Below are positions 2,408-10,842 of a DNA stretch of 64,000 nucleotides, in pieces. How positions within the stretch are numbered: the first letter of the stretch is position 1; each line of letters begins with the position of its first letter. Origin of the DNA: a virus (lineage: Duplodnaviria; Caudoviricetes). A program made the position numbers and the translations under genes. The notes under the pieces were generated by a model that saw nothing but the letters and a program-made list of their open reading frames with translations, had not been told where the DNA came from and did not search any database. The stretch spans positions 34,662 to 98,661 of IMG/VR virus record IMGVR_UViG_3300036833_000232; one strand, written 5' to 3'.

Positions 2408-5400
2408 GTGGCCAGCGAATCCGAGATCTCCGACCTGTACATCACCCTGCGCACGGTCACCGCCCCCATGCTGGAGGGCTTCACCCAGGCCAGTGCGGCT
2501 GGTGAGGAGATGGTCGCCGCGCTGACCGCTGGCCTGGGCAAGTTGGACGCGGCGATCGCGCGGACCGCCGAGCAGTTGGCGGGGTTGCGTACCGAGATGG
2601 CGTCCGCCGCGTCCGGCACCGCCACTGCCGGTGCCGCCGCGGGGGGTGAGACCGCCGCTACGGGGGCTGCTGCGTCCGCTGCCGCAGCCGGGTCGGGGGC
2701 AGGTGCCGCAGCGGATGCAGACGCGGCAGCAACGGAAGCCGCGAGTGCGAAGCAGGTCGCCGCGTGGGACCGGGTCCTCGCCGAGATGGCCAAGGTGTCG
2801 GCCGAGTCGGCGACGACCGCAGCATCGTGGGACGCGGACATGACCGCGATGGTCGCCGCGTCGACGCGGGCGTCCGAAGGCATGATCGCCGCCCAGTCGA
2901 AGGTGGAAGCGTCCAACGCCCAGTACGCGGAATCCGCAGCCGCCTACGACGCGGCCAACGCGCCTCTGAGCAACCTCGCCGGGAACCTGCTGAAGGTCGG
3001 TGCCGCAGGTGTGATCGCCGGTGGGGCAACGGTGAAAATGGCCGCCGATTTCCAGTCGTCTACCACCCGTCTGGTGACGTCCGGCGGCGAGTTGCAGTCC
3101 AACCTTGCCACCGACCAGCAGGGCATTTTGAACCTGGCTGGACAGGTCGGGTATTCGGCTGGTGCCCTGTCGTCCGCCATGTACAAGATCACGTCGTCGG
3201 GTCAGCAGGCAGGGCAGGCCTTGGACACGTTGAAGGCTGCGGCGCAGGGCGCGAAGACCGAGAACGCTGATCTGACGACGGTCGCGGACGCCGTATCCAC
3301 CGTGATGATCGACTATCACGGGAAGGTCGGGTCAGCCGCTGACGTGACCTCGAAACTGGTGGCCGCGACCAGCCAAGGCAAAACGAACTTCCAGGACCTG
3401 GCCAGCAGCCTCTCAGCCATCCTGCCGAAAGCATCCGGCGCGCACATCAGCCTAGACGAGATCCTCGGCGACCTGGCATCCATGACCCAGCACGGCATGA
3501 GCGCCCAGCAGGCCGCGCAGAACCTGGCCAACGCGGTTGGTCACTTGCAGTCCCCCACGATGGCAATGTCCAAAGAGATGGCGGCGCTCGGTATCAACTC
3601 CACGGAGCTGGCCGCGAACCTCGGCAAGGCTGGGCTGTCGGGGTCGATCCAGGTGATCTCGCAGGCGATCCAGAAAGACATGGGTCCGGGCACGTCCGCG
3701 GTGATCCTGCAAATGCAGTCCGCGTTGAAGGGTCTCCCGCCGGCGGTGCAGCAGGTGTCGCAGGAAGTGTTGGACGGCACCACGTCGTGGGCCGAGTGGA
3801 ACGCCGCGACGAAAACCCTGCCGGTTACCCAACGAGCCCAGGCCCAATCGTTCGCGACGCTGGTCAACTCGATGCACACCATCGGCACCGAGCAACTGTC
3901 CGGGTCGCAGGTGATGCAAACCTACGCAGGTGCCATGAACAAAGCGATGGGCACCACGGACGGCCTCAACGTCGCTTTGATGTTGACCGGGCAGAACACC
4001 GACAACACCAACCGGGCGATCGCCGCGGTCAGTAAGGCTACCGCCGACGCGCAGGGCAATGTGCAGGGCTGGTCGAATATCCAGGGCACGTTCAACCAGC
4101 AACTGTCCGAAGCCAAGGACGGGCTGGACGCTGCGGCGATCGCCGTCGGCGAGAAGTTGCTGCCGCCAGCCACGGCGCTTGTGGGTGTGCTGGCTGGGGT
4201 CGCGACCTGGTTGGCCCACAACACCGTCGCCGCCGATGCCCTCGCTGTCGTAATCGGGATACTGCTGGCCGGTGGGGTTGTCGGGCTCACCATGAAACTC
4301 GGCCAGTTCGCGCTCGCCATGGCGAAGAACGTGATAGCGCCGATCACTGGGGCGGTCGGGTTCACCAGAAACCTGATCGGCGGGTTCCAAGGCGCGGAAG
4401 CTGCCGCTGGCACGTTCGGCGGGAAAGTCGCGTCGGCGTTGCAGATGGTGGGGTCATGGGCGTCCTCGACGGCGTCGGCGGTCGCGTCGTTCGTGTCGAA
4501 CCTGGCTGGCGCGGTCGCGTCCGGTGCCCAGTGGGTGGCGTCCACTGTGGCGCAGTGGGCGACGGTGGCCGCGTCGGCGGTGGTGAACGCGGCGAAGTCG
4601 ACCGCCGCGTGGCTGGCATCAACTGCGAAAATGATTGCCCAGGGGGTGGCGCAGGCCGCGACGTGGGCGGCGTCGATAGCAGCGAAGTTCGTGGCCGTGG
4701 CGACCTCGGCGGTGGTCAACGCCGCAGCGACCTCGGCGGCGTGGCTGGCGGCGTCCGCGCGGATGGTGGCCCAGGGAATAGCGCAGGCCGCAGTGTGGGT
4801 AGCGGGGATGCTCGTCAAGTTCGCGGTGGTGGCCGCGTCGGCGGTCGTATCGGCTGCGGCGACCGCGGCGGCGTGGATCGCCGCGAACGCCGCGATGATC
4901 GTCGCCACGGGCGGGATCATCCTGTTGATCGGCCTGCTGGTCGCGGCCGGTATCTGGGTGGTGACCCACTGGACCGAGGTGAAAACCTTCTTCGTCGGGT
5001 TGTGGCACGACATCGAGCACATTTTCAGCGAAACGGTCAACTGGGTAGTGGAGATCGTCAAGGGCTGGTATCCGCTGATCCTGGGCGTGTTGTCCGGCGG
5101 GATACTCCTCATCCCCGCGTTGATTTTCAAGTACTGGCATCAGATCGTGGGGTTCTTCAGCGACGCTGGCCAGTGGCTATGGAACGCCGGCAAAGCAATC
5201 CTCGACGGTCTCCTGAACGGACTGAAGTCCGCATGGAACAGTGTCACCAGTTTCATCGGGGGAATCGGCAGTTGGATCGCCGCCCATAAAGGGCCGATCG
5301 ACTACGACCGTAGCCTGTTGACGCCACACGGTAACGCCATCATGGATGGGTTGCTGGTCGGGTTGCAGGCCGGCGGGCAGAAAGTCGGCTCGTATCTGAC

Positions 5401-5671
5401 GCAGTTCACGCAGGGAATCCGGGACACGGCGATCGGCGATGTGACCGGGTCGATCAGTGTCGCTGGAGTTGGTGGCGCATCCGCTGGCGCGACTCCCATG
5501 GTGTCCCCCGCGGGGGCAGCTTCTGGGTCTGGTGTGACGGTGGTGAACATGCCGATCACGGTCAACGGGTCGGTGCTGACCGACACCGATTTGGCGCGGT
5601 ATTTGCAGCGGGCGTTTCTGCAATTGCAGGCCCGGAACGGGTCGTTCTCCACCACCGTCGCGTTCTCCTAA
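2408..5671 (+). CDS. Tail tape measure protein
   Basis: 1087 aa, Ala-rich helical, TP901-like core, ~40-aa Trp-spaced repeats, hydrophobic C-terminal segments. Confidence 0.93.
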   Translation: MASESEISDLYITLRTVTAPMLEGFTQASAAGEEMVAALTAGLGKLDAAIARTAEQLAGLRTEMASAASGTATAGAAAGGETAATGAAASAAAAGSGAGAAADADAAATEAASAKQVAAWDRVLAEMAKVSAESATTAASWDADMTAMVAASTRASEGMIAAQSKVEASNAQYAESAAAYDAANAPLSNLAGNLLKVGAAGVIAGGATVKMAADFQSSTTRLVTSGGELQSNLATDQQGILNLAGQVGYSAGALSSAMYKITSSGQQAGQALDTLKAAAQGAKTENADLTTVADAVSTVMIDYHGKVGSAADVTSKLVAATSQGKTNFQDLASSLSAILPKASGAHISLDEILGDLASMTQHGMSAQQAAQNLANAVGHLQSPTMAMSKEMAALGINSTELAANLGKAGLSGSIQVISQAIQKDMGPGTSAVILQMQSALKGLPPAVQQVSQEVLDGTTSWAEWNAATKTLPVTQRAQAQSFATLVNSMHTIGTEQLSGSQVMQTYAGAMNKAMGTTDGLNVALMLTGQNTDNTNRAIAAVSKATADAQGNVQGWSNIQGTFNQQLSEAKDGLDAAAIAVGEKLLPPATALVGVLAGVATWLAHNTVAADALAVVIGILLAGGVVGLTMKLGQFALAMAKNVIAPITGAVGFTRNLIGGFQGAEAAAGTFGGKVASALQMVGSWASSTASAVASFVSNLAGAVASGAQWVASTVAQWATVAASAVVNAAKSTAAWLASTAKMIAQGVAQAATWAASIAAKFVAVATSAVVNAAATSAAWLAASARMVAQGIAQAAVWVAGMLVKFAVVAASAVVSAAATAAAWIAANAAMIVATGGIILLIGLLVAAGIWVVTHWTEVKTFFVGLWHDIEHIFSETVNWVVEIVKGWYPLILGVLSGGILLIPALIFKYWHQIVGFFSDAGQWLWNAGKAILDGLLNGLKSAWNSVTSFIGGIGSWIAAHKGPIDYDRSLLTPHGNAIMDGLLVGLQAGGQKVGSYLTQFTQGIRDTAIGDVTGSISVAGVGGASAGATPMVSPAGAASGSGVTVVNMPITVNGSVLTDTDLARYLQRAFLQLQARNGSFSTTVAFS

Positions 5672-5703: not shown

Positions 5704-6249
5704 ATGGCCCTGTCCACGATCACCGTTACCGGGACGTGGGTGACGCCCGCGAATGTGGCCCCGGCGTCGGGGTCGGTGATGTTCCAACCGGTGCAGGAGG
5801 TGGCCGGCGGCGGGTTCATCGTCGCGGACTCCCCGGTCACCGCCACCCTGAACGGTGCTGGCGCAATCTCGATCGTGCTGGTCAACAACACACAGGCCAC
5901 CAGCTTGCAGTACCAGGTGACGGAGCAGATCGCGGGTGCCCCAACGGTCACCTATGTGATCTCCCCGACGGGGAGCAGCGTGGACCTGTCCACGGTGTTC
6001 CGGGGGTCGGCGACGCCTCTGCCGGCGTTGGGGGCCGGGCGGGTCACCGGTTCGTTCACCGGCACCGGGTCGGCGACCACGTTCGCGGTGACCCACAACC
6101 TGGGCAATTCGGCGCCGGTGTGGTCGATGTATTCCGGTGTTCAGCAGTTTTGGCCGGAGTTTCAGCCGTCGTCGGCGAATGCCGGGAGTTTCGTGTTCAC
6201 GTCGGCTCCCGCGTTGGGTGTCGTGTTCCTCTACACGCTGGTGGGGTGA
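5704..6249 (+). CDS. Minor tail protein; N-terminal ~98 aa paralogous to the N-terminus of 8047-10842
   Basis: Follows TMP; 'VTHNLG' beta domain. Confidence 0.7.
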   Translation: MALSTITVTGTWVTPANVAPASGSVMFQPVQEVAGGGFIVADSPVTATLNGAGAISIVLVNNTQATSLQYQVTEQIAGAPTVTYVISPTGSSVDLSTVFRGSATPLPALGAGRVTGSFTGTGSATTFAVTHNLGNSAPVWSMYSGVQQFWPEFQPSSANAGSFVFTSAPALGVVFLYTLVG

Positions 6250-6252
6250 GGG

Positions 6253-6951
6253 ATGGCGCAGGATTTCCCGAATGGGATCGATTTGACGTCGACCGGCCGC
6301 GTGAGCCACGTTCTTGACCCGGCGGTGTCGACTGACGGGTCGACCAAGAATTATACGGATACGACCACGTCGGCGATCTATTACGGCGGGTGGGGTGACG
6401 CCGACTCCGATGTGTATGGCGATCTGCTGTCCACGTTTCCCCGGAACTACTTTATGTTGCTCGGTGCGGCGACCGGTGGGACAGCGACCACCAACGTCCA
6501 ATCCATCAGCAGCGGTAATCAGAACGCGTACCTGTGGTACAACCGGCGGGCCTTCACCTCGACTGGGTTTCGGTATGTGACTGGGTCGTCGTCCGCGACG
6601 TCGGGGAACACGGTCACGGCGACGATCTACACCGGCACGAGCCTGGCGGCGATGGTGTTGCAAACGACCGTCGCGGCGCCGTTCACGACCACGTCCACGT
6701 TCACCCAGGTCGGGTGGGGTAGTTCGGTGTCGGTACCGGTCGGGTGGGTCGCGGTCGTATTCACCTGCACCGCGGGGGCAACCCCCAAGTTCGCGGCTGT
6801 GTTCGCGCAACCGTACGGGGGTACGTTCACGAATCCGTCGGGAACGGCGGCGGTGTCGATCGCGCGGACCAGCGCCAGCCTGCCCTCCACTCTCGATTTC
6901 ACCAGCGGCTGGTCGGCGAACACGATCCAGCCGTGGTTGGCGATGTATTGA
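6253..6951 (+). CDS. Minor tail/fiber protein
   Basis: 'DPAVSTDGSTKNYTD' fiber-type motif; Thr/Ser/Gly-rich. Confidence 0.7.
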   Translation: MAQDFPNGIDLTSTGRVSHVLDPAVSTDGSTKNYTDTTTSAIYYGGWGDADSDVYGDLLSTFPRNYFMLLGAATGGTATTNVQSISSGNQNAYLWYNRRAFTSTGFRYVTGSSSATSGNTVTATIYTGTSLAAMVLQTTVAAPFTTTSTFTQVGWGSSVSVPVGWVAVVFTCTAGATPKFAAVFAQPYGGTFTNPSGTAAVSIARTSASLPSTLDFTSGWSANTIQPWLAMY

Positions 6952-8025
6952 AGTGCTGGGGACACCGGGGGTTCCCAAACGCTCGCCGCGAACTCCGGGT
7001 CGAACTTTTACCGTATTCCCGCGGTGGTGGTGTCGAACGCGGGGACGGTGGTGGCGTCGTGGGATCGGCGTAACGGGTCGAACGCTGACCTGCCGAACAA
7101 TATTGATGTGCTGACGTCGCGGTCCACGGACGGTGGCCGCACCTGGTCCGCGCAGGCGGTGCTCGCCGCCCACGATGGGGGGAGCACGTCGACGACGGCG
7201 AATGGGCGCGGGGATTGCTGCCTGACCGTGAACCGGGTCACCGGCCGGATTTTCGCGCACTATATTCGGTCGCCGGCCACGATCGGGATCAGCAACTCGG
7301 ACAACACCACCAGCAACACCAGCACCACCACCATCGGGTGCGCCTACCGCTATTCCGATGACGACGGGGTCACCTGGTCCGCCGAGACGATCTACACGGC
7401 CACCGTGAAAACGACGGCGATGTACGGCACGTCCGCGTCGAGCGGGCACGGGTTCTGCGACGTCGGCGGCACGGTGTATGTCCCGTACTGCTTCACCGAC
7501 AGCACCGGCGGCCGGAACGACTTCGTCATGTACTCGGCGAACAACGGCACCACCTGGGCGCGGTCCACGGTGGTCGGCCCGGGGGTGGACGAGCACCACA
7601 TCGCGCTCCGCTCGGACGGCTACTACCTGTCGAACGCGCGTCCCACCGGCACCACCAAAACACGGCTGCTGTCGCTGACCAACAACCTCACCACCGCGTG
7701 GTCCGGGCCGTTCGCGATCGCGACGCTACCGGACCCGCAGTGCAACGGGGACCTCCTGCGGGTGGACCCGTCGGACAGCAGCCCGATGGCGACCTGGTTG
7801 CTGGCCTCCGGGTGCGCGTCCACCGGCACCCGGCAGAACCTGACGGTGTGGATGTCCAAAGATGGTGGCACCACCTGGCCGTATGCGTGGACCGTGTACC
7901 GGGGCGGCGCGGCCTACTCCAGCATGGTGCGCCTGGGCGTCGGCCAGTACGGGATCTTCTGGGAAGACACCGACACCGCATCGCTGCTGTTCACCACGTT
8001 CACCCTGACCAACCTCGCCTACTGA
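6952..8025 (+). CDS. GH33-like sialidase (BNR/Asp-box propeller), in frame with the upstream tail gene after one TGA
   Basis: FYRIP motif (7006-7020), Asp boxes STDGGRTW, SDDDGVTW, SANNGTTW, SKDGGTTW, and AYSS; no ATG/GTG/TTG between the TGA and RIP. Confidence 0.85.
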   Translation, partial: SAGDTGGSQTLAANSGSNFYRIPAVVVSNAGTVVASWDRRNGSNADLPNNIDVLTSRSTDGGRTWSAQAVLAAHDGGSTSTTANGRGDCCLTVNRVTGRIFAHYIRSPATIGISNSDNTTSNTSTTTIGCAYRYSDDDGVTWSAETIYTATVKTTAMYGTSASSGHGFCDVGGTVYVPYCFTDSTGGRNDFVMYSANNGTTWARSTVVGPGVDEHHIALRSDGYYLSNARPTGTTKTRLLSLTNNLTTAWSGPFAIATLPDPQCNGDLLRVDPSDSSPMATWLLASGCASTGTRQNLTVWMSKDGGTTWPYAWTVYRGGAAYSSMVRLGVGQYGIFWEDTDTASLLFTTFTLTNLAY

Positions 8026-8046: not shown

Positions 8047-10842
8047 GTGGCCCTGTCCACAGTTGTGATCACCGGGTCGTGGGTGACACCACTCAACACA
8101 CCCGCCACCGGGCAAGTCGTCATCACCCCGGTGGCCCCCGCGACCGGCGGCGGCTACATCGTCGCCGACTCCCCGATCGTGGTACCCCTCACTGCCGGCG
8201 CGATCTCCCAGACGGTGGTCAACAACACTCAGGTCGCCACGCTGCTCTACCAGATCGTCGAGCAGATCACCGGTGCCCCCGCGGTCACTTACGTGATCGC
8301 GCCGACCGGGTCGACGATCGACCTGTCCACCGTGACCCGCCTGCCGGCCACGGTGGTGGCGCCGAACCCGAACCGGCCCCTGCTGACGGTCAACGTTGAT
8401 TTCACCCAAGGACCCCCGCATCTGCCCGGCGCGTCCGCGCAGTCGATCAACAATCAGGCCAACCGGAACGTGGTCCGCAAAGTCACCATCTCCCGGGGGC
8501 GGCAGTACGAACTCGACCAGGTCCAGGCCGGCACCTGCACCCTGGAGGTCACCGACCCGCTGGAGATGCTGCACCCCGCCAACACCGCGTCCCCGTTCAA
8601 CTCGGCGGGCAGCACCATCACCAGCTACCGGTGCGCCCAGGTCGCCGCGTGGTGGAACCCGGCCACCCAGAACCTGGCCGGGAACCTCCTCAACACCGCC
8701 AACGTCGGCCCCGGTGGGGCCACCCCCTACGACCCCAGTTTCGAGAGCACGGTCGGCTGGCTCGGCCTGTTCGGCACTGCCGCCACGATCGCCCAGTCCA
8801 CCACTCACGCCTACGACGGCACCCACTCCTGCGCGGTCACGCTCACCGGGACGGGTGATGTCGCCGGCGGCGGGATCTGGACCGCGCCGGGCCTCACCTA
8901 CACGCTGTCCGCCTACGTGTGGGTCCCGGCCGGCGAGTCGGTGACGTTGACGTTCGGCCAGTTCACACCCGCCGTGACGGTGTATGGGTCGGCGACGTCG
9001 ACAGTGACCGGCGGCTGGCAACGCCTGTTCGTGACCGCCCCCGCGACGAACGCGGTCTCCTACTTCACGGTGCGCGGCGGCACCGGCGCCACCTATCCGT
9101 TCACGTTCTGGGTCGACGCCGTCCAGTTGGAGTTCGCGGTCACCCCAACGACGTTCACCGCGGCAGGGCCGACGATGTTTTCGCTGTACACGGGGTATGT
9201 GGAGCGGTTCCCGCTGCAATGGGACATGCAGGGCACCCGCGGGATCCGGCCGTTGACGATGGTGGATGCCCTGTCGGTGCTGTCCCGCACCGAAATCACC
9301 CAGGCCTATTCGACCACGATCCTGGCCGACAACCCGTACGTCTACATCCCCTACAACGACCAGTCCCTTCCGCAGCAGGTGCGGTTGCCGCAGGGCGGCC
9401 AAATCACCACGGGCTACAGCAACCTCGGCACCAACGGCCAGGTCAACTTTCAGGGCGACACGTTCCTGGACGGCACCGCCGCAGTGTCGGTCACGCAGCA
9501 GAACGCGACCCCGCCGACGTCCGGCAACCCGGTGTACATCACCTACCTGGGCACGCATAACGGCAGCGTGAGCCTGAACCCGCAGGCGTTCACCCTGGAG
9601 TTGTGGTTCCGGTGGACCAGCGGAACCATCTACATCGGGGTCGGTGACGTCCAGCCCGGCGAAAACGTCAACACCGAATCCCTCGGCCCCACCTACCAAC
9701 TCGGGGTCCAAACCCTCGGCGGGAAACTCCTCACCGCCTATCAGGACCCGAACGGTTCATCCGCCGGGAACTTCGGGTTCCCCGGCATCACCGGATACCC
9801 CGACGGGCAATGGCACTACCTGGTGTTGCGGTTGACCGGGTCCAGCCAAATCCAGTTGGCGGCCGACGCGACGATCGGCGGACACGGGAACTTCGGGTTC
9901 ACCCCCAGCCAAGCAATAAGCATCAACAACTTTTATGTCAACGCCGGCACCTACTTCGGTGACCCGGTCACCACCGTCGCGGTCGCGAACCTCGCGGCCT
10001 ACCCGGTGGCGTTGACCAACACGCAGGTGTTGGCCCACTACAACCGGGGTGCCGGCTATATCGGCGAGGTGTCCGGTGCGCGGGTGTCACGGCTGCTGAC
10101 CCAGTACTGGGCTGGCCCGGTCGCGGTGGCCGCGGGGAAACGGCAGATGGCCCCCGACTTCGACTACGCCACCCGCTTCGTTCTGGACGTGTTGCAGGAA
10201 ATCCAGGAAACCGAACGTGGGTTGGTGTATGCCGACCGGGCGGGCACGGTGGTGTTCGAGGACTCCGCCAGCCGGTACGTGAACAATCCGACGTCGAAAG
10301 CGGTCCTCGGGGAGAACCCCGCTGGTGTGTCGCCGGTCGAATATCCGTATTCGGCGCTGGTGCAGGATTACGACCCGACCTACACGTTCTCCCAGGCGAA
10401 CTTGACGCGGCCGGGGAACTCCACGTTCGCGCCGCTGCCGAGCCCGTTGCCGGTGAACCCGCCGTACGGGCAGCGGATCCTGTCGCAACAGGTACAGGTC
10501 AACACCGATTTTGACCTGACCCAGGCCAGCACGTTCTACCTGAAACGCTACGGCGCGCCGGTGCTTCGGGTGGAGACGTTGACGCTGAACCCGGCGGCGC
10601 AGCCCGCCCTGTGGGGTGTCGTGTTGGGGTTGGAGATCAGCCAGCGGATCACGGTGAAACGCCGCACCACCGCCGGGTTGGTCACCATCGGCGACTACTA
10701 CATCGAGCAGATCAACCACACGATCGACGACACCAGTTGGACCGTTGACCTGCAATGTTCCCCGGTGTTCAACGCGAACGCGTGGGTGCTCGGTAATCCC
10801 GCCTACGGGATTCTGGGGTCCACCACCATCCCCGTCTACTAA
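8047..10842 (+). CDS. Large minor tail/baseplate protein with CBM-like and LamG-like domains
   Basis: 'DPSFES...YTLSAYVW...WQRL...VDAVQLE' (CBM-like) and 'FTLELWF...DGQWHYLV...AYPVALTNTQVLAHY' (LamG-like). Confidence 0.8.
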   Translation: MALSTVVITGSWVTPLNTPATGQVVITPVAPATGGGYIVADSPIVVPLTAGAISQTVVNNTQVATLLYQIVEQITGAPAVTYVIAPTGSTIDLSTVTRLPATVVAPNPNRPLLTVNVDFTQGPPHLPGASAQSINNQANRNVVRKVTISRGRQYELDQVQAGTCTLEVTDPLEMLHPANTASPFNSAGSTITSYRCAQVAAWWNPATQNLAGNLLNTANVGPGGATPYDPSFESTVGWLGLFGTAATIAQSTTHAYDGTHSCAVTLTGTGDVAGGGIWTAPGLTYTLSAYVWVPAGESVTLTFGQFTPAVTVYGSATSTVTGGWQRLFVTAPATNAVSYFTVRGGTGATYPFTFWVDAVQLEFAVTPTTFTAAGPTMFSLYTGYVERFPLQWDMQGTRGIRPLTMVDALSVLSRTEITQAYSTTILADNPYVYIPYNDQSLPQQVRLPQGGQITTGYSNLGTNGQVNFQGDTFLDGTAAVSVTQQNATPPTSGNPVYITYLGTHNGSVSLNPQAFTLELWFRWTSGTIYIGVGDVQPGENVNTESLGPTYQLGVQTLGGKLLTAYQDPNGSSAGNFGFPGITGYPDGQWHYLVLRLTGSSQIQLAADATIGGHGNFGFTPSQAISINNFYVNAGTYFGDPVTTVAVANLAAYPVALTNTQVLAHYNRGAGYIGEVSGARVSRLLTQYWAGPVAVAAGKRQMAPDFDYATRFVLDVLQEIQETERGLVYADRAGTVVFEDSASRYVNNPTSKAVLGENPAGVSPVEYPYSALVQDYDPTYTFSQANLTRPGNSTFAPLPSPLPVNPPYGQRILSQQVQVNTDFDLTQASTFYLKRYGAPVLRVETLTLNPAAQPALWGVVLGLEISQRITVKRRTTAGLVTIGDYYIEQINHTIDDTSWTVDLQCSPVFNANAWVLGNPAYGILGSTTIPVY

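What the first reader, a model, noticed from the sequence alone, without database searches (positions are those of the whole stretch)
6253..8025. Sialidase domain reachable only by UGA read-through of a tail gene
Seen: 6253-6951 and the sialidase ORF are in the same frame, separated by one TGA (6949-6951, followed by A). The 24 codons after it are open, encode a linker plus FYRIP, and contain no ATG/GTG/TTG; the first possible start (7024) lies after RIP. A short hairpin GGGGAC-accgggg-GTTCCC begins 6 nt after the stop. Known: the RIP arginine is part of the GH33 catalytic arginine triad, so a protein started at 7024 would lack it; UGA-A is a leaky context, and read-through extends structural proteins in phage Q-beta (A1). 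Inference: virions carry mostly the 232-aa form and a minority 590-aa form with a glycan-cleaving propeller, perhaps for nonulosonic-acid (e.g. Kdn) wall polymers of actinomycetes. A recent nonsense mutation or sequencing error is the alternative.
Basis: partly seen in the sequence, partly recalled or inferred. Interest (0 to 1): 0.8.

Follow-up and report, generated by a model that had tools for sequence, protein, structure and literature searches.

The report
Leaky-stop tail fibre carrying a sialidase
In a soil actinophage and at least ten diverged relatives, a short tail-fibre gene ends in the same UGA stop, followed in frame by a conserved RNA signal and a complete sialidase with no start codon of its own. 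The enzyme can therefore only be made when ribosomes read through the stop, a decoding trick I found no report of for tailed DNA phages in the papers I could search.

Summary
ORF 6253-6951 (232 aa) ends in TGA-A. The same frame continues for 24 codons with no ATG, GTG or TTG, through SAGDTGGS...FYRIP, into a GH33-type sialidase that ends at 8025. The strongest evidence is comparative. Eleven distinct loci (soil phage contigs, a prophage end, an Amycolatopsis chromosome; 44-84% aa identity; synonymous sites otherwise saturated) keep one in-frame TGA at the same position, with no canonical start before the catalytic Arg. All share the motif TAT/TTT-TGA-AGY-GSN-GGG-GAY-NNN-GGN-GGT-TCC-CAA, built from rare codons. 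The twelve strongest windows of excess synonymous conservation in the 590-codon gene all lie within -5 to +9 codons of the stop. A hairpin forms 2-6 nt after the stop in all six loci folded. The invariant RIP arginine uses four different codons, so the region is translated. No fused form with a sense codon was found in 1.8 billion representative proteins. Two independent assemblies carry the TGA. Best explanation: programmed UGA read-through, Q-beta A1-like (Tyr-UGA-A), giving a major 232-aa fibre and a minor 590-aa fibre-sialidase. Selenocysteine, pseudogene, sequencing error and internal start are poorly supported. The amino acid inserted, the efficiency and the substrate were not determined. 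Earlier notes of this scan report candidate UGA read-through on unrelated phage capsid genes; I did not test them.

The parts
2408..5671 (+). Tape measure protein gene (context: places the locus in the tail module)
   Evidence: Pfam PhageMin_Tail 3e-23. tblastn hits to tape measure genes of Arthrobacter and Mycobacterium phages.
5704..6249 (+). 181-aa gene whose first ~100 aa are 62% identical to the N-terminus of the 931-aa gene at 8047-10842; with that gene it brackets the fibre-sialidase gene
   Evidence: BLASTP 3e-34. No Pfam or PHROG hit.
6253..6948 (+). Short form (232 aa): fibre-repeat motif at about residues 15-45, then a C-terminal beta-sandwich tip domain (about residues 45-232) that ends at the natural C-terminus of its family (..PWLAMY)
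   Evidence: Profile search: positions 6-35 recur up to 23 times in giant fibre-like proteins. Positions 41-221 lie at the extreme C-terminus of about 25 distant relatives. AF2 model pLDDT 73, with Foldseek hits to mycobacteriophage Douge central fibre gp20 (8zdp, 9e-6), the Bxb1 tail tip (9d93) and CBM6/32 modules.
6946..6952 (+). Recoding site UAU UGA A (Tyr codon, UGA, +4 A)
   Evidence: TGA-A in 11/11 loci. The preceding codon is TAT in 9 and TTT in 2 of the 11 aligned loci, although TAT makes up only 15% of Tyr codons in this genome. Same Tyr-UGA-A context at the coat stop of the Q-beta record.
6946..6999 (+). Zone of excess synonymous-site conservation (proposed 3' read-through signal): U UGA AGY GSN GGG GAY NNN GGN GGU UCC CAA ...
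   Evidence: After correction for codon usage, the top 12 of 583 nine-codon windows all lie at -5 to +9 codons from the stop. Rare codons AGT, GCT, GGT and CAA are kept. The motif occurs once in the window, with 0.04 matches expected by chance.
6957..6977 (+). Hairpin UGGGGAC-ACCGGGG-GUUCCCA, 5 nt after the UGA
   Evidence: MFE -9.6 kcal/mol here. A hairpin forms at the same place in L103, L004, L173, L177 and L172 (-8.5 to -16.7 kcal/mol), with a different 3' arm in L177 and L172. 97% of cells are paired across 11 loci, but mostly through invariant bases, so there is no significant covariation.
6952..7023 (+). Start-less coding segment after the stop: Gly-rich linker SAGDTGGS, then the first propeller strand and the catalytic FYRIP arginine
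   Evidence: No ATG, GTG or TTG here in any of 11 loci. Residues from Q9 of this segment align to the solved M. viridifaciens sialidase. The invariant Arg is encoded by CGT, CGC, CGG or CGA in different loci.
6952..8025 (+). GH33-type sialidase domain (357 aa plus stop), present only in the 590-aa read-through form
   Evidence: Pfam BNR_2 4e-20. phmmer 4e-37 to 1EUR. R68, D92, E260, R276, R342 and Y370 of M. viridifaciens sialidase are all matched. Foldseek TM 0.84 and rmsd 3.5 A to 1EUS.
8047..10842 (+). 931-aa downstream structural gene sharing its N-terminal ~100 aa with the 181-aa gene (context)
   Evidence: PHROG 5313, unknown function, 2e-83.

Best explanation
This is programmed in-frame read-through of a UGA stop. 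Most ribosomes that translate the tail-fibre gene 6253-6951 terminate at UGA 6949-6951 and release a 232-aa fibre, which consists of an N-terminal fibre-repeat segment and a C-terminal CBM-like beta-sandwich tip. A minority decode the UGA with a near-cognate tRNA. That tRNA is inferred to be tRNA-Trp, by analogy with Q-beta and with UGA-A misreading in E. coli. These ribosomes continue through the linker SAGDTGGS into a catalytically complete GH33-type sialidase, giving a 590-aa fibre-sialidase. The leak is set by the conserved context U-UGA-A after a Tyr or Phe codon. It is probably also set by a conserved element of about 50 nt whose core is a hairpin 5-6 nt downstream. That spacing would place the hairpin at the mRNA entry channel when the UGA is in the A site (inferred). 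Virions would then carry mostly plain fibres and a few fibres tipped with an enzyme that cleaves a sialic-acid-like sugar on the actinobacterial host envelope (inferred). SHOWN: the conserved stop, the lack of any start, protein-level selection on the downstream ORF and on the pre-start segment, nucleotide-level selection around the stop, and intact catalytic residues. INFERRED: that read-through is the event, the amino acid inserted, the efficiency, the role of the hairpin, virion incorporation and the substrate.
For: (1) One in-frame TGA sits at the same codon in 11 distinct loci: window, L002, L003, L004, L103, L104, L171, L173, L175, L177, L178. A twelfth relative (the contig of P0122; no DNA held) has its two genes in the same frame 36 nt apart. 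(2) None of the 11 has ATG, GTG or TTG between the TGA and the RIP Arg. More distant bacterial and phage sialidases all have their own start or signal peptide before RIP. (3) The lineages are old: synonymous identity outside the junction equals the codon-usage expectation for nearly all pairs, and one lineage has GC3 0.42 against about 0.9 in the others. The sialidase ORF nevertheless stays open with 44-84% aa identity. The RIP Arg is invariant but encoded by four different codons, and all six GH33 catalytic residues are kept. (4) The top 12 of 583 windows of excess synonymous conservation all lie at -5 to +9 codons from the stop, built from rare codons TAT, AGT, GGT and CAA. (5) A hairpin starts 2-6 nt after the stop in all six loci folded, including two with altered arms. 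(6) The context matches known leaky stops: the coat stop of the Q-beta record is TAC TGA A, and UGA+A is reported as prone to tRNA-Trp misreading (PMC5289835). (7) TGA is the ordinary stop in this genome (54 of 93 ORFs) and the only tRNA is tRNA-Met, so there is no code reassignment or suppressor. (8) No fused sense-codon form appears among 1.84 billion representatives or in the word-index searches, so the stop itself looks selected. (9) The TGA is present in two assemblies.
Against: There is no direct evidence of a 590-aa product: no proteomics, and no RNA run was listed. The hairpin is short, its energy is not exceptional against shuffles (z -0.6 to -2.2), and covariation is not significant. 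The conserved nucleotides could therefore act as sequence rather than structure, or partly reflect the Gly-rich peptide. To my knowledge, 3' structure-stimulated read-through has not been established in bacteria. One relative (L172) has TAG and a +1 offset instead, which pure read-through does not explain. Another sub-lineage (L174, probably P0014) expresses the sialidase from its own ATG, so covalent fusion is not obligatory for function.
Confidence: 0.75

Rival explanations
1. Another recoding event, not near-cognate decoding, carries ribosomes past the stop. Examples are skipping of the stop triplet or a +1 shift stimulated by the same hairpin. The long form would then read ...Y-SAGD... with no residue for the UGA.
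For: L172 has TAC T AGC GCG..., which is the family sequence minus 2 nt. There the fibre ends in TAG and the sialidase frame is +1. A +1 event at the stop would give the same Y-SAGD junction, and a stronger hairpin (-15.8 kcal/mol) follows 2 nt after the stop. The Atkins review notes that in-frame stop hopping could underlie some presumed read-through cases (PMC5009743).
Against: There is no matching take-off and landing codon around the stop (UAU ... AGU), so classical hopping does not fit. L172 is a single metagenomic contig and may simply carry a 2-nt deletion or an assembly error. The other 11 loci are in frame, which is what read-through needs and frameshifting does not.
Confidence: 0.08
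2. The sialidase is made as a separate protein from a start downstream of the stop (GTG 7024 or a non-canonical codon), either as a non-catalytic glycan-binding propeller or through termination-reinitiation.
For: Gene callers annotate it this way: P0001-P0013 start after RIP. A sub-lineage does have a separate, coupled sialidase gene (L174). The RIP motif is altered to RIA or RGC in L171 and L173.
Against: The 24 codons before the first start are conserved as protein. Y253 and R254 are invariant, Arg uses four synonymous codons, and the segment aligns to structured residues of 1EUR. In L104, L171, L178, L103 and L004 there is no canonical start even directly after RIP. No non-canonical start (CTG, ATT, ATC) is conserved before the Arg. 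The Arg itself is kept in L171 and L173.
Confidence: 0.07
3. The UGA encodes selenocysteine, and the conserved downstream hairpin is a bacterial SECIS bound by host SelB.
For: A UGA followed closely by a conserved hairpin is also the layout of bacterial SECIS elements. Full-length SelB matches (about 2-574 of 581 positions) occur in at least a dozen of 201 sampled Pseudonocardiaceae genomes, the family of the Amycolatopsis locus. None of the genomes I cite for this is among the four flagged as unpublished.
Against: The codon sits at the natural C-terminus of the fibre-tip domain family, where about 25 distant relatives simply terminate, in an interdomain Gly-rich linker and not at a redox site. 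No Cys or other sense-codon homologue exists. The L174/P0014 and L172 variants dispense with the residue altogether. No Rfam SECIS model matches at E <= 10. The hairpin starts only 5-6 nt after the UGA and its loop has no conserved GU (from memory of the E. coli fdhF model; not tested here).
Confidence: 0.04
4. The sialidase is a dead remnant, a nonsense-mutated fusion gene or a sequencing error, and the conserved nucleotides are only a recombination linker between phage modules.
For: Conserved boundary sequences between exchangeable modules are known in phages (general knowledge). The module sits in different genomic neighbourhoods: after the tape measure gene here, and after the lysis genes in L002, L003, L173 and L177.
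Against: The downstream ORF is intact in all 11 loci despite saturated synonymous divergence, and the catalytic residues are invariant. The TGA is confirmed in two assemblies. A recombination linker would not explain the universal loss of a start codon.
Confidence: 0.03

Closest known systems
Q-beta (Qubevirus) coat / A1 read-through protein
   Same: A structural virion gene ends in a leaky UGA with the same immediate context, a Tyr codon before and A after (the Q-beta record reads TAC TGA ACT). The in-frame extension gives a minor longer form that shares the N-terminal structural domain. By inference, tRNA-Trp decodes the UGA.
   Different: Q-beta is an ssRNA phage of E. coli, and its extension is not an enzyme. 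No conserved 3' hairpin signal is part of the classical description (my knowledge). Here the genome is a 98.6-kb dsDNA siphovirus-like actinophage, the extension is a 357-aa glycosidase, and about 50 nt after the stop are under nucleotide-level selection.
Gammaretrovirus (MuLV) gag-pol and alphavirus-type read-through with a 3' RNA structure
   Same: An in-frame stop is followed, after a short conserved spacer (5-8 nt), by a structured element. Synonymous-site conservation is enhanced 3' of the stop (Firth et al. 2011, listed in PMC5009743).
   Different: Those are eukaryotic systems (eRF1, UAG or UGA-C, pseudoknot or long stem). Here the ribosome is bacterial with RF2, the hairpin has only 6-9 bp, and a possible pseudoknot stem is not supported statistically.
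Frameshift-generated long forms of tailed-phage structural proteins (T7 10A/10B, lambda G/GT; PSA, A118 and A500 named in PMC5009743)
   Same: Same logic: a fixed minority of a structural protein gains a C-terminal extension or domain through recoding at the end of the gene.
   Different: Those use -1 or +1 frameshifting at slippery sites. Here the two ORFs are in the same frame in 11 of 11 loci and no slippery site is conserved. The G5 run is absent in 6 loci.
Micromonospora viridifaciens sialidase (GH33; PDB 1EUR, 1EUS, 1EUT)
   Same: Closest solved relative of the extension: 32% identity, TM 0.84, and all catalytic residues matched.
   Different: The bacterial enzyme is a secreted stand-alone protein with its own start and signal sequence, as are the other bacterial relatives. 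The phage version has no start and hangs from a fibre tip. Its substrate is unknown.
Mycobacteriophage tail-tip or central fibre proteins (Douge gp20, 8zdp; Bxb1 tail tip, 9d93)
   Same: The beta-sandwich of the 232-aa form matches a domain of these fibres (Foldseek 9e-6 and 6e-5).
   Different: Only 11-14% identity and partial coverage (TMq 0.47). Those proteins have 600-880 aa, and no read-through or sialidase is reported for them.

Membership tests
Programmed stop-codon read-through (recoding) | An in-frame ORF continues directly after a single stop codon | tested here: met
   The same holds in 10 further loci.
Programmed stop-codon read-through (recoding) | The stop codon is conserved at the same position across diverged homologues, with no sense-codon versions | tested here: met
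   11/11 loci have TGA-A. No fused form. Synonymous sites are saturated elsewhere.
Programmed stop-codon read-through (recoding) | The downstream ORF, including the part before any start codon, evolves under protein-level purifying selection | tested here: met
   Catalytic residues are invariant. The RIP Arg is encoded by CGT, CGC, CGG or CGA. No start before it in any of 11 loci.
Programmed stop-codon read-through (recoding) | A leaky stop context and/or a 3' stimulatory element under nucleotide-level selection | tested here: met
   UGA-A context. The top 12 of 583 windows of synonymous conservation lie at the stop. Whether the element acts as a hairpin is inconclusive.
Programmed stop-codon read-through (recoding) | Two protein products are detected, with a residue inserted at the stop | not testable with these tools
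   No proteomic data are available. Only DNA contigs were found for the locus.
GH33 exo-sialidase | Six-bladed beta-propeller with Asp-box (BNR) repeats | tested here: met
   Pfam BNR_2 4e-20, plus a sub-threshold BNR Asp-box hit (25.4 bits against a cut-off of 27). Foldseek to 1EUS gives TM 0.84.
GH33 exo-sialidase | Catalytic set: Arg triad (including the RIP Arg), acid/base Asp, and the nucleophile Tyr with its Glu | tested here: met
   Alignment to 1EUR matches R68, D92, E260, R276, R342 and Y370. They are invariant in 8 full-length relatives.
GH33 exo-sialidase | Hydrolysis of a sialic or other nonulosonic acid glycoside | not testable with these tools
   This needs an enzyme assay. The substrate (Neu5Ac, Kdn, Pse or Leg) is unknown.
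Bacterial selenoprotein (UGA plus SECIS) | A SECIS hairpin recognised by SelB at the proper distance from the UGA | tested here: inconclusive
   No Rfam match at E <= 10. The hairpin starts 5-6 nt after the UGA. The comparison with the fdhF SECIS is from memory only.
Bacterial selenoprotein (UGA plus SECIS) | Cys-containing homologues at the Sec position, and a position that is functionally important | tested here: not met
   No sense-codon homologues. The position is the natural C-terminus of the domain family. Variants without the codon exist.
Bacterial selenoprotein (UGA plus SECIS) | The host has the Sec machinery (SelB and partners) | tested here: inconclusive
   Full-length SelB occurs in part of the Pseudonocardiaceae. 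The hosts of the phages are unknown.
Phage tail fibre / receptor-binding protein | Located in the tail module, with fibre-type sequence or fold features | tested here: met
   The gene follows the tape measure gene. The N-terminal motif is repeated in giant fibre-like proteins. The fold matches tail-tip fibres of phages Douge and Bxb1. No PHROG or Pfam family covers it.
Phage tail fibre / receptor-binding protein | Presence in the virion and binding to a receptor | not testable with these tools
   The family has no cultured member: it is absent from 50,697 phage records.

The most novel reading that the evidence does not exclude
The ~50-nt element (U-UGA-AGY-GSN + hairpin) is a dedicated, portable bacterial read-through stimulator. 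It would be the first 3' RNA signal known to reprogramme RF2 termination in bacteria. It would work with host factors alone, since it is kept in an Amycolatopsis chromosomal copy, and could also drive a +1 shift (L172). It would set a fixed stoichiometry of enzyme-tipped fibres on tailed phages.
Probability: 0.3. Interest if true: 0.9.

Novelty: new variant of a known kind. Interest (0 to 1): 0.78.

Why it matters
Stop-codon read-through that adds a domain to a virion protein is textbook for the RNA phage Q-beta and for eukaryotic viruses. For tailed dsDNA phages I found no report in the literature I could search. There, frameshifting is the recognised route (PMC5009743). This case has strong comparative support and a defined cis element, so it can be tested directly with a reporter or by mass spectrometry.

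It matters in three practical ways. First, gene callers systematically mis-annotate these sialidases as N-terminally truncated stand-alone proteins that lack the catalytic arginine. Second, it suggests that some soil actinobacteria display sialic-acid-like sugars that phages must cleave. Third, the element could serve as a natural tool for setting protein ratios in high-GC bacteria.

Tried and rejected
- Cultured phages: megablast and tblastn found no relative of the fibre, and only one 28%-identical sialidase hit.
- The first single-sequence scan of viral contigs with the fibre found nothing.
- The profile scan and the DNA-motif scan of viral contigs returned only the L002/L005 contig.
- Rfam: no relevant match.
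- PHROGs: nothing for the fibre or the sialidase.
- Pseudoknot idea (hairpin loop pairing with AAC-NCC-GG about 20 nt downstream): 85% of cells paired and one covarying pair, but not better than shuffles, so it was dropped to a speculation.
- RNAalifold proposed an alternative stem that includes the GA of the UGA, with no compensatory changes.
- The G5 run as a slippage site was rejected, because it is absent in six loci.
- The TTG that overlaps the stop (TAT TGA read as TTG) lies in another frame than the sialidase, so it was rejected as a start.
- Suppressor tRNA: none in the 98.6-kb genome or in the fetched loci.
- The genome that holds L004 is not available, so its Sec machinery could not be checked directly.
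- A search of 401 Pseudonocardiaceae genomes with the fibre profile gave only two distant prophage fibres with ordinary stops followed by holin-like genes.
- Sequencing runs: no RNA holder was listed. Only contigs were available, so minor variants at the TGA could not be examined.
- The search for longer fused forms found none, which is weak evidence.
- DNA of the closest relative (the contig of P0122) could not be fetched.
Full report
**1.

The window is the right 64 kb of a 98.6-kb IMG/VR virus record with 67% GC and an estimated completeness of 95%. ORF 6253-6951 starts at ATG 6253 and ends at TGA 6949-6951, which is followed by A. The same frame then runs without a stop to TGA 8023-8025.

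The first 24 codons after the stop encode SAGDTGGSQTLAANSGSNFYRIPA and contain no ATG, GTG or TTG. The first possible start is GTG 7024. The segment after the stop is a BNR_2 sialidase domain (4e-20). Two Logan assemblies from two soil runs, in two studies, carry the identical sequence at about 21-23x depth. They may include the source sample.

**2. The comparative result decides the case**

The closest called homologues of the sialidase (P0002-P0013, 49-64% identity) nearly all begin after the RIP motif. I fetched their contigs and those of the fibre homologues. Eleven distinct loci show the same layout:

| Locus | Origin |
|---|---|
| window | 98.6-kb soil virus record |
| L002, L003, L173, L177 | phage contigs in which the module follows the lysis genes |
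| L171, L175, L104, L103 | short soil contigs |
| L178 | next to an integrase |
| L004 | Amycolatopsis sp. NPDC004378 chromosome |

In each locus a fibre ORF of about 190-237 aa ends in ..PW-x-x-x-Y/F. One TGA follows, then SAGDxGGS..YRIP in the same frame. A twelfth relative, the contig of P0122 (81% identical fibre), has its two genes in the same frame 36 nt apart, but its DNA could not be fetched.

None of the 11 loci has a canonical start between the TGA and the arginine, and several have none directly after RIP either. More distant sialidases, both bacterial and the phage L007, have ordinary starts or signal peptides ahead of RIP.

**3. The stop is old and under selection**

Outside the junction, the share of identical codons among identical residues equals the codon-usage expectation for nearly all pairs, so synonymous sites are saturated. 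One lineage (L103) has GC3 0.42 against about 0.9 for the rest.

Despite this divergence, the following are kept:

- The downstream ORF stays open with 44-84% aa identity.
- All six catalytic residues of the M. viridifaciens sialidase (R68, D92, E260, R276, R342, Y370) are matched and invariant.
- The RIP arginine, which lies upstream of every possible start, is invariant yet encoded by CGT, CGC, CGG or CGA in different loci.

That segment is therefore translated, and the only ribosomes that can reach it come from the fibre ORF.

No version with a sense codon at this position was found. The searches covered the sialidase (196-625 aa), the fibre and a profile against 1.84 billion representatives. 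In that last search every full-length fibre hit has 207-237 aa.

**4. There is a nucleotide-level signal**

All 11 loci read T(A/T)T TGA AGY GSN GGG GAY NNN GGN GG(T/C) TC(C/T). Eight of them continue with CAA. In this genome TAT, AGT, GCT, GGT and CAA make up only 15, 5, 6, 16 and 21% of their codon families.

I measured codon identity among identical residues and corrected it for each gene's codon usage. The 12 highest of 583 nine-codon windows all lie between -5 and +9 codons of the stop.

A hairpin (UGGGGAC/GUUCCCA here, -9.6 kcal/mol) starts 5 nt after the UGA. A hairpin also forms at that place in the five other loci folded:

- In L177 the 3' arm is GGCUCCAGC and the stem gains two base pairs.
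- In L172 the stem is GCGCGGGAG/CUCCCAGCGC.

Across the 11 aligned loci 97% of cells are paired, but mostly through invariant bases. Shuffles do as well, so the structure is plausible but not proven. A candidate pseudoknot stem did not beat its controls. No Rfam family matches the region.

**5. It is not a change of genetic code**

TGA ends 54 of 93 coding-like ORFs in the genome. The only tRNA is tRNA-Met, and no suppressor tRNA lies in the fetched loci.

**6. What the two parts are**

*The 232-aa form.* It has a short N-terminal motif (..DPAV..TKNYTDTTT..) that recurs up to 23 times in giant fibre-like proteins. It also has a C-terminal beta-sandwich that, in about 25 distant relatives, always ends at the protein's C-terminus (W-x-A-L-Y/L/A, then stop). 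The UGA therefore sits at the natural end of a fibre-tip domain.

The AF2 model (pLDDT 73) matches the mycobacteriophage Douge central fibre gp20, the Bxb1 tail tip and CBM6/32 modules. The gene follows the tape measure gene. It lies between a 181-aa gene and a 931-aa gene that share a 62%-identical N-terminal module of about 100 aa.

*The extension.* Its closest solved relative is the Micromonospora viridifaciens GH33 sialidase, with 32% identity and TM 0.84. From Q9, the start-less segment aligns with structured residues of that enzyme. A protein begun at GTG 7024 would therefore lack a strand as well as the catalytic arginine.

**7. Mechanism**

The simplest reading is leaky termination at UGA. 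The context fits known leaky stops. UGA followed by A is reported as especially prone to misreading by tRNA-Trp in E. coli (PMC5289835). The coat stop of the Q-beta record reads ..GCG TAC TGA ACT, which is Tyr-UGA-A as here.

With the UGA in the A site, a hairpin 5-6 nt downstream would sit at the mRNA entry channel. This is the geometry used by eukaryotic viral read-through and frameshift stimulators (my inference). The result would be a major plain fibre and a minor fibre tipped with a sialidase.

**8. Variants that bear on the rival explanations**

- **L174, and by its N-terminus P0014:** the linker is missing and the sialidase has its own ATG overlapping the fibre stop (TAC TGATG ACT). These are two coupled genes.
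- **L172:** the sequence reads TAC T AGC GCG.., which is the family sequence minus two bases. The fibre ends in TAG and the sialidase frame is +1. This is either a defect or a +1-frameshift version of the site.

Both variants do without any residue at the stop position. The position lies in a linker and no Cys homologue exists. Together these points argue against selenocysteine. Host capacity cannot exclude it, because full-length SelB occurs in part of the Pseudonocardiaceae. No claim here rests on the four genomes flagged as unpublished in that call.

**9. The Amycolatopsis copy (L004)**

This copy lacks the N-terminal fibre segment and has no signal peptide. No phage genes lie within 6 kb, and a tRNA-Leu gene lies 4.4 kb upstream. 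It looks like a phage-derived remnant that still keeps the stop, the element and both open frames. Whether it is expressed is unknown.

**10. Novelty**

The papers I could search describe read-through for Q-beta and for eukaryotic viruses, and frameshifting for tailed-phage structural genes (PMC5009743). I found none that report read-through adding an enzyme to a tail fibre.

Earlier AI notes of this scan report candidate UGA read-through tails on capsid genes of unrelated phages. I did not test them, and they concern other genes. One note on this same genome flagged this site and another flagged the duplicated N-terminal module. I confirmed both.

**Verdict**

This is a well-supported, untested-at-the-bench case of programmed UGA read-through in a family of actinophage fibre genes, with a defined cis element. 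Confidence in the read-through reading is about 0.75.

Noticed in passing
L172:5601-5760 (JGI 3300082524, 30-kb phage contig): A relative in which the fibre ends ..CTT TAC TAG and the SAGD-sialidase frame is +1. This equals the family junction minus 2 nt. A stronger hairpin (-15.8 kcal/mol) starts 2 nt after the stop. It is either a broken copy, an assembly error, or a +1-frameshift version of the same recoding site.
   Followed up: partly
L174:1020-1250, and protein P0014: A sub-lineage without the SAGDxGGS linker. The sialidase has its own ATG overlapping the fibre stop (TAC TGATG ACT), so fibre and enzyme are separate, translationally coupled genes.
   Followed up: partly
window 5704-6249 and 8047-10842: The 181-aa gene before the fibre and the 931-aa gene after the sialidase share a 62%-identical N-terminal module of about 100 aa (BLASTP 3e-34). 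This suggests alternative proteins docking at one site, or a duplication made when the fibre-sialidase cassette was inserted.
   Followed up: partly
L004:5167-6978 (Amycolatopsis sp. NPDC004378, JBSGDR010000015): A chromosomal copy of the module with the TGA and the element intact. It lacks the N-terminal fibre segment and any signal peptide. No phage genes lie within 6 kb, and a tRNA-Leu(CAA) gene lies 4.4 kb upstream. A close relative (L178) lies next to an integrase.
   Followed up: partly
L171:1258-1330 and L173:5658-5730: Two relatives have an altered RIP motif (YRIA and YYRGC). They keep the arginine and the other catalytic residues.
   Followed up: no
proteins P0131-P0143: The fibre's ~30-residue N-terminal motif (..DPAVAQNPATKNYVDTTT..) matches 8-23 repeated stretches in very large proteins (up to 4014 aa). 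These are presumably giant fibre or adhesin proteins. No Pfam or PHROG family covers the fibre that carries this motif.
   Followed up: no
L002:386-3925, L003:570-3928, L173:2071-5660, L177:436-3928: In the ~62-kb relatives the fibre-sialidase module does not follow a tape measure gene. It follows the endolysin (GH25 or Peptidase_M15_4), small genes of 105-218 aa and a 304-362-aa protein. The L002 362-aa protein hits PHROG 2647, annotated 'head decoration'. In L003 the module lies about 1.3 kb upstream of the terminase gene, with one gene in between.
   Followed up: no
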